Translations under genes and position numbers: made by a program
Shown here: positions 27,023 to 27,887 of the stretch, piece after piece
Position numbering within the stretch: position 1 is the stretch's first letter
Layout: every line of letters starts with the position of its first letter
The notes under the pieces: model-generated
The model's database searches: none
Seen by the model: the letters and a program-made list of their open reading frames with translations, nothing else
What the model was told of the DNA's origin: nothing
Source of the DNA: Candidatus Bathyarchaeia archaeon
GTDB lineage: Archaea > Thermoproteota > Bathyarchaeia > Bathyarchaeales > Bathycorpusculaceae
Direction of reading: 5' to 3'
DNA: 64,000 bases
Assembly: GCA_050010515.1 (NCBI GenBank)
Contig: JBEKKX010000004.1
Coordinates: 1-64,000, forward strand

Positions 27023-27348
27023 AAATCAAGAGTCACTATGAAGAGACTATAAGGATTATTAAGCCGCAATTCTGATTACTAATCATTTTCCAAACAATCG
27101 TGCATTTTATTGATCAAGAATGACATCTGTTCTCGTTTTGACCTCTCAGACAGTGGCAAGGCATCGTCAGTTTTTGTGTCTGCGGGGCTATCCAAAGCAA
27201 CCGAACCATCAACAACGCAGGCTTCTTGTCCACAGTGCTCCTTTATCTTGTGAGTTTTGCGTTATTTTCCAGAATGATAGGCCGCTAGCGCTGCTCTTTG
27301 TTTGGGGTTAAGCTAATATAGTCTGTGAGGGTTACTTGGGGGCAGTGT

Positions 27349-27386
27349 GGTAGTTTCCGTATATAACCTACCTTAAAAAACCCGGG
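27349..27386 (+). promoter_or_regulatory. Candidate preQ1-I-like riboswitch aptamer
   Basis: GGUAG-UUUCCGUAUAUAAC-CUACC-UUAAAAAA-CCCGGG directly 5' of queT. Confidence 0.65.
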
Positions 27387-27395
27387 TTGAATGAA

Positions 27396-27887
27396 ATGAG
27401 ATTAAATACTAAAAAATTAGCAGTTGTTACTGTTTTTGCCGCTTTGTATGCGGTTGGAGTTATTTTTTTGGCGCCGATAAGTTTTGGAGTCTTTCAAGTA
27501 AGGGTAGCTGATGCGCTGTTGCCGCTGTCGATGATTTTTGGGCTCCCAAGTGCGCTGGGCCTTAGTTTGGGCTGCATAGTTTCTAACGTTTATGGCGGGC
27601 TTGGAATAATTGATATTGTTGGCGGTGCAGCTGCAAATCTTGTTGCTTGCACTTTGGCTTGGTATATTGGTCGTAAAGGAAGGGGTGCTCAGCGGTTTCT
27701 GGGAACTGTTGCAGAAACAGTAGCTGTTGCTTTGATTGTTGGAGGATACCTCTCACTGATATTTCAGGTTCCACTTGAAATCAGTCTCTTAGGAGTACTT
27801 ATTGGCGAAACGATAGCGATAAACCTTATAGGCTTCCCCATAGAAGAAGCGATAAGACGGAGCAAAATTTTTAGAAAATACAGCTAG
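27396..27887 (+). CDS. queT: QueT family transporter (7-deazaguanine precursor uptake)
   Basis: AALY..LAPISFGVFQVRVADAL, GLSLGCIVSN, GIIDIVGG, IGETI. Several TM helices. Confidence 0.9.
   Translation: MRLNTKKLAVVTVFAALYAVGVIFLAPISFGVFQVRVADALLPLSMIFGLPSALGLSLGCIVSNVYGGLGIIDIVGGAAANLVACTLAWYIGRKGRGAQRFLGTVAETVAVALIVGGYLSLIFQVPLEISLLGVLIGETIAINLIGFPIEEAIRRSKIFRKYS

What the first reader, a model, noticed from the sequence alone, without database searches (positions are those of the whole stretch)
27349..27398. Candidate archaeal preQ1/preQ0 riboswitch controlling queT
Seen: P1 GGUAG (27349-53) / CUACC (27368-72) closed by G-C. The loop UUUCCGUAUAUAAC starts with U, has G at aptamer position 11 and ends in AC. 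An 8-nt tail UUAAAAAA follows, then CCCGGG. Loop UCCG can pair with CGGG, which overlaps an SD-like GGGUUGA 5 nt before ATG 27396. A TATA-like GCTAATATA at 27312-27320 would start the transcript just before P1. Established: this is the class I preQ1 aptamer layout (5-bp P1, U6, G11, ligand-pairing C at the loop end, A-rich L3), queT is a typical target in bacteria, and archaea use preQ0 for archaeosine. Inference: a translational OFF switch for deazaguanine salvage. I know of no validated archaeal example. The P2 register is shifted by two C's, which could reflect a variant ligand preference.
Basis: partly seen in the sequence, partly recalled or inferred. Interest (0 to 1): 0.9.

Follow-up and report, generated by a model that had tools for sequence, protein, structure and literature searches.

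The report
Candidate archaeal preQ0 riboswitch before queT
A short, strictly conserved RNA leader in front of a 7-deazaguanine transporter gene of peat-dwelling Bathyarchaeia has the layout of the smallest bacterial preQ1 riboswitch, and could be one of the first such switches in archaea, but binding and folding are still unproven.

Summary
The motif is far from chance: 27 distinct versions sit directly before a QueT gene in Bathyarchaeia genomes and metagenome contigs. About 37 nt are invariant while the flanks are scrambled. The layout matches a class I (type II-like) preQ1 aptamer: 5-bp P1, UU after it, CCG in the loop, AAC before the P1 return strand, an A6 tail, then CCGG overlapping a GGUGA-type Shine-Dalgarno.

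Formal membership fails. Rfam's PreQ1 model gives no hit on the window and 10 bits (cut-off 39) on the best variant. P1 and P2 show no significant covariation.

Context is supportive. The genome has an archaeal TGT but no queC was found, so it should depend on preQ0 uptake. A conserved TATA box would start transcription 0-5 nt before P1.

The motif arose once, inside a QueT clade whose relatives carry a different, larger leader ("B-type"). B-type is absent from Rfam, shows covariation, pairs with its Shine-Dalgarno and precedes queT-queC. It occurs in 93 of 151 Bathyarchaeia genomes searched and in other classes of the phylum.

Best reading (0.55): a translational OFF switch for preQ0. Two metatranscriptome contigs start inside the aptamer, which is unexplained.

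The parts
27313..27320 (+). TATA-like box (CTAATATA), the probable queT promoter
   Evidence: A TTAATATA-like octamer (2 mismatches or fewer) is present in 20 of 26 A-type loci that have enough upstream sequence. Its end lies 28 nt before P1 in 12 loci, 27 nt in 3 and 22-23 nt in 3. Its role as a promoter is inferred from archaeal promoter geometry (my knowledge), not shown.
27343..27345 (+). Predicted transcription start (CA/G about 24 nt after the box)
   Evidence: Inference only. No TSS data exist. The RNA contigs reach only to 27360.
27349..27353 (+). P1 5' strand GGUAG
   Evidence: The four inner pairs are invariant in 25 of 25 leaders. The outer pair is G-C in 20, A-U in 1 and mismatched in 4.
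27354..27356 (+). L1 UUU
   Evidence: Invariant in 25 of 25. The position corresponds to the U after P1 in the Rfam PreQ1 consensus.
27357..27359 (+). Proposed P2 5' strand CCG
   Evidence: Invariant in 25 of 25 and in all 8 true hits of a pattern that left these positions free. The pairing itself is inferred.
27360..27367 (+). L2 UAUAUAAC, ending in the candidate ligand-pairing C27367
   Evidence: This is the only variable part: nine sequence versions, 7-9 nt long. The terminal AAC is invariant. The role of C27367 is inferred by analogy with C15 of the Tte aptamer (passages of PMC7641330).
27368..27372 (+). P1 3' strand CUACC
27373..27382 (+). L3 UUAAAAAACC (A-rich tail plus spacer)
   Evidence: UAAAAAA is invariant in 25 of 25. 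The spacer before CCGG is none, C, A or G. L3 is 5-8 nt longer in the three leaders where P1 can extend to 6-7 bp (L101, L227, L275).
27383..27386 (+). Proposed P2 3' strand CGG(G), part of the invariant CCGG (27382-27385)
   Evidence: CCGG is present in all 25 leaders. It can pair with CCG 27357-27359, plus a U27356-G27386 wobble. There is no covariation, so the pairing is inferred.
27384..27390 (+). Degenerate Shine-Dalgarno GGGUUGA
   Evidence: The 16S rRNA 3' end of this genome reads GGATCACCTCCT. In 12 of the 25 leaders of A4 the sequence is CCGG(G/GG)UGA, that is a GGUGA Shine-Dalgarno that starts within or directly after the invariant CCGG. The two further variants L270 and L275 read the same way.
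27396..27887 (+). queT (163 aa, ECF-type S component for 7-deazaguanine precursors)
   Evidence: PF06177, 100.6 bits.

Best explanation
The 27344-27395 leader of the queT mRNA is a small cis-acting RNA switch. It most likely folds as an H-type pseudoknot built like a class I (type II-like) preQ1 aptamer.

Proposed fold:
- P1: GGUAG/CUACC.
- L1: UUU.
- P2: CCG (27357-59) with CGG (27383-85).
- L2: ends in AAC.
- L3: A-rich, lying along P1.

Proposed action: a 7-deazaguanine base, most likely preQ0 (the substrate of archaeal TGT), would stack between P1 and P2 and pair with C27367. This would lock P2, which holds the first Gs of the Shine-Dalgarno, and so lower translation of the transporter when the base is plentiful.

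What is shown: the sequence, its conservation, its exclusive position before queT, its single origin within the QueT tree, and the metabolic context.

What is inferred: the fold, the ligand, the OFF direction and the transcription start.
For: 1. Conservation. 25 distinct leaders share invariant GUAG-UUUCCG...AAC-CUAC..UAAAAAA..CCGG, while both flanks diverge and the QueT proteins differ considerably. Two more variants were found.

2. Specificity. There is one copy per genome, always before QueT: 18 of 332 genomes with 0 reversed-control hits, and 25 of 25 followed by QueT. With the A-type model R2, 7 strong hits in 151 genomes are all queT leaders.

3. Layout. The motif has the 5-bp P1, the UU after it, a C before P1's return strand and the UAAAAAAC tail of the Rfam PreQ1 consensus printed. 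Unlike that consensus, the C is preceded by A, which the 2024 review gives as the type II/III signature. It also matches features of the solved Tte aptamer: G5, U6, C9, G11, an L2 that starts UA and ends AC, and Shine-Dalgarno bases held in helix S2 (passages of PMC7641330). For the 61-nt leader of L040, PreQ1 is the only one of 4227 Rfam families reported at E<=10.

4. Structural co-variation of lengths. Where P1 can be 6-7 bp (L101, L227, L275), L3 is 5-8 nt longer. One leader (L098) has A-U for G-C at the outer P1 pair.

5. L2 is not a TATA box. L2 tolerates UACAUAAC in two lineages, as well as UAGAUAAAC and AAUUUAAC.

6. Promoter. A TTAATATA-like box ends 22-28 nt before P1 in 18 of 26 loci.

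7. Metabolic logic. G000 (98.5% complete) has a TGT+DUF5591 protein and an EcfT-like CbiQ, but only partial PP-loop hits for QueC. The same holds for 3 other A-type genomes, and a fourth has no QueC hit at all. Class I type II aptamers also bind preQ0 (review passages).

8. Relatives. The sister QueT genes carry the B-type leader, which is well supported as a regulatory RNA and precedes queT-queC. The A-type therefore took over a regulated position (tree).

9. RNA. Two peat metatranscriptome contigs of a relative bridge 27360 to beyond the ATG.
Against: - Rfam PreQ1 (cut-off 39 bits) does not report the window: not at gathering, not at E<=10 in 201 nt or 58 nt, and not among the 15 own-genome hits of 12.6 bits or more, although only 150 of 547 candidates were scored.
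- P1 covariation is not significant. Four pairs never vary, and the outer pair is mismatched in 4 of 25 leaders (all four belong to the G071/G073/G068-like group of leaders). 142 of 500 shuffles reach the observed number of compensated pairs.
- P2 has no variation at all.
- There is no thermodynamic signal, and RNAalifold gives only -0.8 kcal/mol.
- Both RNA contigs reach leftwards only to 27360, which is inside the aptamer. One ends flush there. If that is a true 5' end the aptamer cannot form.
- In the window itself the Shine-Dalgarno is degenerate (GGGUUGA).
- L2 (8 nt) is longer than in the Rfam consensus loop: the loop is 14 nt against 12.
- No ligand binding, TSS or expression test exists.
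Confidence: 0.55

Rival explanations
1. It is a functional RNA leader element, but not a class I-like 7-deazaguanine aptamer. It could be the binding site of a protein, or an aptamer with another fold or ligand, whose likeness to preQ1-I is superficial.
For: Conservation is at the level of primary sequence, including the helix positions. That suits sequence-specific recognition as well as it suits a fold. The Rfam model fails. The related B-type leader has UU, not AC, before P1's return strand, so the ancestral pocket need not be class I-like.
Against: The coincidence of P1 length, UU, CCG, AAC, the A6 tail, CCGG/SD overlap and a queT context is hard to get by chance. PreQ1 is the only Rfam family reported for the L040 leader. 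No candidate RNA-binding protein gene is linked to the locus in the window: the neighbours are a PAS histidine kinase and an ABC transporter.
Confidence: 0.2
2. It acts at the DNA level. On this view the inverted repeat GGTAG/CTACC with the A/T-rich centre is an operator/promoter (TATATAA as the TATA box, or the GATAGTT-like element upstream as the box). The mRNA would then start at about 27360 or about 27390, so no aptamer exists in the transcript.
For: The A/T-rich centre stays A/T-rich in most variants. Both RNA contigs reach leftwards only to 27360. A semi-conserved GATAGTT-like element lies 8-13 nt before GGTAG, about 21 nt before 27360 in many loci. Only 160 of 1342 ORFs (11.9%) have a 5-mer Shine-Dalgarno by a rough count.
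Against: The contigs include 36 nt upstream of the ATG, so a start at 27390-27396 is not the only one, if they are RNA. The centre is the least conserved part, varies in length (7-9 nt) and carries C or G in four versions. The invariant blocks UUUCCG and UAAAAAAC-CCGG are not palindromic partners. A much better TATA box is conserved further upstream at a fixed distance. Twelve of the 25 leaders of A4, and both further variants (L270, L275), keep a GGUGA Shine-Dalgarno that a start near the ATG would exclude. Genome-wide, Shine-Dalgarno 5-mers peak at -16 to -10 and TATA-like octamers show no sharp peak at -30.
Confidence: 0.17
3. It is a constitutive structural leader (stability or translation element), or a decaying remnant of the B-type switch, with no sensing function.
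For: It replaced the B-type leader in genomes that mostly lack queC. Feedback control might have been lost along with biosynthesis. There is no covariation.
Against: A remnant would drift. Here unpaired nucleotides are invariant across three families of the order (f1, f6, f7). A plain hairpin would not need the invariant loop and tail.
Confidence: 0.08

Closest known systems
preQ1-I riboswitch (Rfam RF00522), especially the type II subgroup exemplified by the Thermoanaerobacter tengcongensis aptamer
   Same: A roughly 34-38-nt H-type pseudoknot layout: 5-bp P1 with G at its top, U(U) after P1, a C..G segment in the loop that can pair with the 3' tail, an L2 ending in AC directly before P1's return strand, an A6-rich L3, and a P2 3' strand overlapping the first Shine-Dalgarno bases. 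It sits before queT, and type II aptamers are known to accept preQ0.
   Different: The host is an archaeon. The Rfam model scores 10 bits or less against a cut-off of 39. The loop is 14 nt rather than 12, and L2 is 7-9 nt. P2 is CCG/CGG with a 0-1-nt variable spacer after the A run before the invariant CCGG. Helix positions are invariant instead of covarying. Binding is untested.
'B-type' queT/queC leader of Thermoproteota
   Same: It occupies the same position before QueT genes and has the same order of elements: P1 5' strand, L1, CCG, L2, P1 3' strand, A-rich stretch, CCGG, then the Shine-Dalgarno. It has the same promoter geometry. Both types occur in one genome (G029).
   Different: It is about 70 nt long. 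P1 is GGCGG/CCGCC. L1 is 17-25 nt with its own hairpin, whose 3' half pairs with the Shine-Dalgarno. L2 is only UU. It is supported by covariation. It usually precedes queT-queC. It is found in 93 of 151 Bathyarchaeia genomes. R1 does not report the window at E<=1 and scores 11.3 bits on L101.
preQ1-II (RF01054) and preQ1-III (RF02680) riboswitches
   Same: They control queT and sequester the Shine-Dalgarno in a pseudoknot (review passages).
   Different: They are HLout pseudoknots of about 80-100 nt found in Bacillota. Neither family was reported at E<=10 on the A-type or B-type leaders.
Archaeal fluoride and TPP riboswitches
   Same: According to McCown 2017 (passages) these are the riboswitch classes commonly seen in archaea, and they are 5'-leader elements.
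   Different: They have unrelated folds and ligands.

Membership tests
preQ1-I riboswitch (RF00522) | Score at or above the curated Rfam cut-off (39 bits) | tested here: not met
   Window: 0 matches at gathering. PreQ1 is not among the matches at E<=10 in 201 nt or in 58 nt. It is not among the 15 own-genome hits. Best variant L040: 10.0 bits, E 4.9.
preQ1-I riboswitch (RF00522) | P1 helix of about 5 bp supported by covariation | tested here: inconclusive
   GGUAG/CUACC can pair, and 96.8% of cells are paired. However, 4 pairs never vary, and the outer pair is GC in 20, AU in 1 and mismatched in 4. 142 of 500 shuffles do as well.
preQ1-I riboswitch (RF00522) | Pseudoknot helix P2 between the loop and the 3' tail | tested here: inconclusive
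   CCG (27357-59) and CGG (27383-85) are complementary, but both are invariant in 25 of 25 leaders and in a pattern search that left CCG free.
preQ1-I riboswitch (RF00522) | C directly 5' of P1's return strand, preceded by A (types II/III) or U (type I) | tested here: met
   AAC is invariant in 25 of 25. The criterion comes from the 2024 review (passages).
preQ1-I riboswitch (RF00522) | A-rich L3 tail (AAAAAAC in the Rfam consensus) and U after P1's 5' strand | tested here: met
   UAAAAAA and UUU are invariant. The consensus is printed.
preQ1-I riboswitch (RF00522) | Position upstream of queuosine/7-deazaguanine genes (queT, yhhQ, queCDEF) | tested here: met
   25 of 25 leaders precede QueT. 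QueT is confirmed by Pfam in the window.
preQ1-I riboswitch (RF00522) | Selective binding of preQ1/preQ0 | not testable with these tools
   Needs in-line probing, ITC or a structure.
   G000 has 0 hits at E<=0.01. L001 and L227 are not reported at E<=1, and L101 scores 11.3 bits with E 0.29.
Archaeal TATA promoter of a leaderless or near-leaderless mRNA (TATATAA 27360-27366) | Box centred about 26 nt before the mRNA start, with the mRNA starting at or next to the ATG | tested here: inconclusive
   The box starts 36 nt before the ATG. The distance varies from 32 to 42 nt among variants. Contigs from RNA libraries cover 27360 onwards. The element is the least conserved part. No TSS mapping is available.

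The most novel reading that the evidence does not exclude
Thermoproteota archaea control the supply of the archaeosine precursor preQ0 with riboswitches of their own. On this reading there is a widespread, roughly 70-nt pseudoknot (B-type) that sequesters the Shine-Dalgarno of queT-queC operons and is a new riboswitch class. In one Bathyarchaeia QueT clade that has mostly lost queC, there is a miniaturised descendant or replacement (the window's motif) that has converged on the architecture of the bacterial class I preQ1 aptamer. These would be the first 7-deazapurine riboswitches in archaea, and a documented case of aptamer turnover at one gene.
Probability: 0.35. Interest if true: 0.9.

Novelty: new variant of a known kind. 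Interest (0 to 1): 0.75.

Why it matters
Riboswitches are rare in archaea. The passages read from McCown 2017 list TPP and fluoride as the common classes, with a few FMN, Mg2+-I and guanidine-II examples. The 2024 review of the preQ1 family does not mention archaea at all: 0 occurrences.

An archaeal 7-deazaguanine switch would do three things:
- extend the preQ1 family to a second domain of life and to archaeosine metabolism;
- give a handle on preQ0 salvage in uncultured Bathyarchaeia that lack queC;
- together with the B-type leader, offer a natural experiment on how a tiny aptamer arises, by convergence or by reduction.

It would also supply compact ligand-controlled parts for archaeal genetics.

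Tried and rejected
Rfam. Neither the window nor 17 related loci contain any curated RNA family at the leaders. E<=10 scans of the A-type and B-type leaders gave only chance hits, apart from the 10-bit PreQ1 alignment on L040. The best own-genome PreQ1 hit (22.3 bits, L031) lies on tRNA-like T-arm sequence and is a false positive.

Thermodynamics. There is no signal.

Alternative helices.
- The long-range helix ACUUGGG/CCCGGGU in the MFE is seen only in the window and its nearest relative, not in other leaders. I rejected it.
- The AACCU/GGGUU helix implied by a chance Rfam hit is lost in leaders that read CCGGUGA. I rejected it.

Search for covariation.
I found only 5 true A-type leaders in the loci held (L116, L148, L156, L211, L216). 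The rest are chance matches.
- A pattern that left the P2 5' strand free found 9 of 401 genomes, against 7 reversed-control hits. Eight of the 9 are queT leaders, all with CCG unchanged, and 1 (G012) is chance.
- Weak hits of the A-type model R2 (23.7 bits or less): none of the 13 I examined precedes QueT.

RNA runs. Two runs of one study held a tenth of the sampled words. No contig covered 27150-27359 or 27554-27950. This absence of cover is not evidence. That both contigs end at 27360 is recorded as unexplained, not as a TSS.

B-type versus class II/III. I read passages on class II/III pockets but could not map the B-type onto them.

Tools and papers that failed.
- McCown 2014 (PMC4145258) is not held, so the type definitions come from passages of the 2024 review.
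- Supplementary files were not consulted. Supplementary alignments of the preQ1 papers might list archaeal hits that I could not see.
Full report
**What is in the window.** One search confirms every base of the finding.
- P1: GGTAG 27349-53 and CTACC 27368-72.
- Loop: the 14-nt TTTCCGTATATAAC.
- Tail: TTAAAAAA, then CCCGGG 27381-86.
- Shine-Dalgarno-like GGGTTGA 27384-90, five bases before the in-frame ATG at 27396.
- GCTAATATA at 27312-20.

The ORF 27396-27887 is a QueT transporter (PF06177, 100.6 bits). The neighbours are a PAS/response-regulator histidine kinase on the other strand and an ABC ATPase with a 12-TM protein downstream. The leader shows no thermodynamic signal: z = +0.65, and 146 of 200 shuffles fold as well.

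**Organism.** QueT relatives that are 80-94% identical come from records titled Candidatus Bathyarchaeia/Bathyarchaeota MAGs (one is labelled Chloroflexia by its submitter), with isolate names that include fen and palsa. The genome (G000) has 2.38 Mb in 66 contigs, is 98.5% complete and has 42.6% G+C.

**Is it a known RNA family?** No.
- Rfam 15 gives nothing at gathering thresholds in the window or in 17 related loci, apart from an rRNA fragment.
- At E<=10, PreQ1 is not reported for 27250-27450 or for 27341-27398.
- RF00522 run over the whole genome lists 15 weak hits (12.6-22.3 bits), none at queT. Only 150 of 547 candidates were scored.
- The best of these hits lies on tRNA-like T-arm sequence followed by an A run.
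- The shortest variant of the motif (L040, 61 nt) does bring up PreQ1, as the only family of 4227.

So there is a resemblance but no membership.

**Conservation.** A QueT search in 61 related genomes, followed by reading the upstream regions, showed two kinds of leader. Six close orthologues carry the window's motif, which I call A-type.

A pattern that left P1's return strand free found the motif once each in 18 of 332 genomes of the family, with 0 reversed-control hits. All 18 copies lie before a queT-like start. Further copies came from:
- the named genome records: 14 of 20 loci;
- a second pattern in 401 genomes of the class: 8 true hits, 1 chance hit and 7 control hits;
- a covariance model of the motif, R2: 7 strong hits in 151 genomes of the order, all queT leaders.

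The alignment A4 holds 25 distinct leaders. The invariant blocks are GUAG-UUUCCG, A at the second position of L2, AAC-CUAC, U..UAAAAAA and CCGG. Only four things vary:
- the middle of L2: UAUAU, UAAAU, UAUUU, UAGAUA, UAGAU, UAAAA, UAAU, AAUUU and, UACAU;
- the base after CUAC;
- an optional spacer before CCGG: none, C, A or G;
- an insertion of 5-8 nt in the tail in three leaders.

All 25 are followed by a QueT homologue 20-30 nt after CUAC.

**Does the structure covary?** Not significantly. The four inner P1 pairs never change. The outer pair is G-C in 20 leaders, A-U in one (L098) and mismatched in four (L039, L040, L116, L228, one related group of leaders). 142 of 500 shuffles reach the same count of compensated pairs. 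P2 (CCG with CGG) is invariant on both sides.

Two softer points favour an RNA helix. In L101 and L227, P1 can extend to 7 bp (GAGGUAG/CUACCUC), and in L275 to 6 bp. Exactly these three leaders have a longer L3, as an H-type pseudoknot would need. Also, the only freely variable stretch is the loop segment that is flexible in solved class I aptamers (passages of PMC7641330).

**Likeness to class I.** The Rfam consensus is a 5-bp P1, a 12-nt loop that begins UUCG and ends in C, and the tail AUAAAAAACUAAGG. The A-type has UUUCCG...AAC and UUAAAAAAC(C)CGG.

The review of the family says that type II/III aptamers have AC before P1's return strand, and that types I/III have UU after its 5' strand. 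The A-type has both.

In the Tte aptamer:
- G5 is conserved;
- U6, A29 and C15 read the ligand;
- C9 and G11 make the canonical S2 pairs;
- the first two Shine-Dalgarno bases lie in S2.

Counting from 27349, the window has G5, U6, C9, G11, an L2 that starts UA and ends AC, and an A run that ends just before the P2 strand.

In 12 of the 25 leaders of A4 the tail reads CCGG(G/GG)UGA, so a GGUGA Shine-Dalgarno starts within or directly after the invariant CCGG. L270 and L275 read the same way. GGUGA is complementary to this genome's 16S 3' end, GGATCACCTCCT. In the window's lineage this has decayed to GGGUUGA.

Type II aptamers bind preQ0 only about 17-fold more weakly than preQ1 (review passages).

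**Promoter and transcript.** A TTAATATA-like octamer (2 mismatches or fewer) is present in 20 of 26 loci. It ends 28 nt before P1 in 12, 27 nt in 3 and 22-23 nt in 3. With the usual archaeal geometry (my knowledge: box centre about 26-27 nt before the start), transcription would begin 0-5 nt before P1, at about 27344 in the window.

The rival view takes the TATATAA inside the loop as the promoter of a leaderless mRNA. This is weakened by four observations:
- that element's variability;
- the retained Shine-Dalgarno;
- the genome-wide picture: Shine-Dalgarno 5-mers peak at -16 to -10, and TATA-like octamers show no sharp peak near -30, although only 160 of 1342 ORFs (11.9%, against a 3.3% background) have a Shine-Dalgarno by a rough count;
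- two peat metatranscriptome contigs of a 95-99% identical relative that run from 27360 to 27487 and to 27553.

Caveats on the contigs: both runs belong to one study, they are contigs rather than reads, and DNA carry-over cannot be excluded.

Both contigs reach leftwards exactly to 27360, inside the aptamer. One is flanked by adapter-like letters and the other ends flush there. This could be loss of the 5'-terminal bases in library construction, a cleavage in the flexible loop, an assembly effect, or a real start driven by a semi-conserved GATAGTT-like element upstream. The last of these would refute the riboswitch.

**Metabolic context.**
- G000 encodes one TGT with a DUF5591 C-terminal domain (541 aa), a PTPS and an EcfT-like CbiQ.
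- For QueC there are only four partial PP-loop matches, covering positions 1-64 of 210, inside larger proteins.
- Three other A-type genomes (G030, G003, G100) look the same, and G574 has no QueC hit at all.
- G029 has a full QueC. It lies directly after a second QueT that carries a B-type leader (79.3 bits).

The A-type therefore typically serves a stand-alone transporter in organisms that need a 7-deazaguanine base for tRNA but for which no preQ0 synthase was found. An OFF switch on uptake fits this picture.

**The B-type leader (outside the finding's coordinates).** Most QueT genes of the genus and class are preceded by a motif of about 70 nt: GGCGG-GUGAG...CUCCYAC-CCG-UU-CCGCC-(A-rich)-CCCGG-..UAGGGAGG.
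- *Distribution.* A model of it (R1) finds it in 93 of 151 genomes across the class. It also finds it in 15 genomes of other classes of the phylum, within 28 of 151 genomes overall. It is not found in G000.
- *P1.* In 62 distinct sequences P1 is paired in 100% of cells. Pair 1 is GC 55, AU 2, UA 2, GU 1. Pair 5 is GC 50, CG 12.
- *Anti-SD helix.* The 3' half of the inner hairpin, together with CCG, pairs with CGG and the Shine-Dalgarno. Cells are 91.5% and 98.9% paired, three of those pairs show compensatory changes, and 0 of 500 shuffles reach the observed score.
- *Downstream genes.* Of 44 strong hits, 39 precede QueT: 37 by phmmer, L251 by Pfam and L105 by tblastn. Four precede a 229-234-aa membrane protein with no Pfam family. 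For one, my script found no ORF.
- *Link to queC.* In G052 the order is B-type, QueT, QueC (209.5 bits), QueT, HD protein. In 5 of 5 B-type genomes of the genus, a full QueC lies directly after the B-type queT. In 4 of 4 loci tested from other classes, the next ORF is QueC (212-220 bits).
- *Promoter.* TATA boxes end about 24-26 nt before the motif.
- *Rfam.* It is not reported by Rfam.

It has the same order of elements as the A-type, but with a long L1 and a 2-nt L2.

**Evolution.** In a midpoint-rooted FastTree of 63 QueT proteins (24 A-type and 39 B-type; I left out ORFs outside 150-200 aa and the non-QueT ORFs), all 24 A-type proteins form one clade. That clade is nested among B-type proteins, with L100, L104 and L102 as successive sisters. 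The A-type therefore arose once, replacing a B-type leader.

**Verdict.**
- The motif is a real, selected leader element specific to queT.
- It works most plausibly like a class I preQ1/preQ0 aptamer with partial Shine-Dalgarno occlusion (confidence 0.55).
- It is not a demonstrable member of RF00522, and its fold lacks covariation support.

I found no description of an archaeal preQ1/preQ0 riboswitch, or of either leader, in the held library. The evidence is the listings and the passages.

Noticed in passing
Related loci, e.g. L022:1422-1499, L251:101-173, L266:1501-1571 (not in the window): A roughly 70-nt 'B-type' leader (GGCGG...CCGUUCCGCC, A-rich stretch, CCCGG, SD) precedes queT or queT-queC. 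It is found in 93 of 151 Bathyarchaeia genomes searched and in 15 genomes of other classes of the phylum. P1 covaries, an anti-SD/SD helix covaries, and it is not in Rfam 15. It is a strong candidate for a new archaeal riboswitch class.
   Followed up: partly
window 27360: Two peat metatranscriptome contigs of a close relative both reach leftwards exactly to 27360, inside the proposed aptamer. One is flanked by adapter-like letters. The cause could be a 5' end, a processing site or an artefact, and it is undecided.
   Followed up: partly
L064:1569-2273, L082:1566-2264 (also L065, L075): Membrane proteins of 229-234 aa with no Pfam family follow the B-type leader in place of QueT. They may be an unrecognised 7-deazaguanine transporter.
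   Followed up: partly
L007 (G054:C3), upstream of its QueT: A QueT 61% identical to the window's has a third kind of leader: a GGCGGG..CTCCGCC hairpin followed by about 90 nt. It matches neither the A-type nor the B-type.
   Followed up: no
window 27326-27340 and the equivalent places in A-type loci: A semi-conserved GATAGTT-like element (GGTTACTT in the window) lies 8-13 nt before P1, between the TATA box and the motif. It could be a promoter-proximal element or a second weak TATA box.
   Followed up: partly
L031:1501-1543 (G000:C6:28559-28601, minus strand); L250:101-147: The best PreQ1 (RF00522) hit in the genome and a 26-bit R1 hit in G054 both lie on tRNA-like T-arm sequence (GGTTCAAATCC) followed by A-rich sequence. 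Both are false positives of small A-tail models.
   Followed up: yes
window 27391-27399: A tiny out-of-frame ATG-AAA-TGA overlaps the queT start codon. It is not conserved in other A-type leaders.
   Followed up: partly
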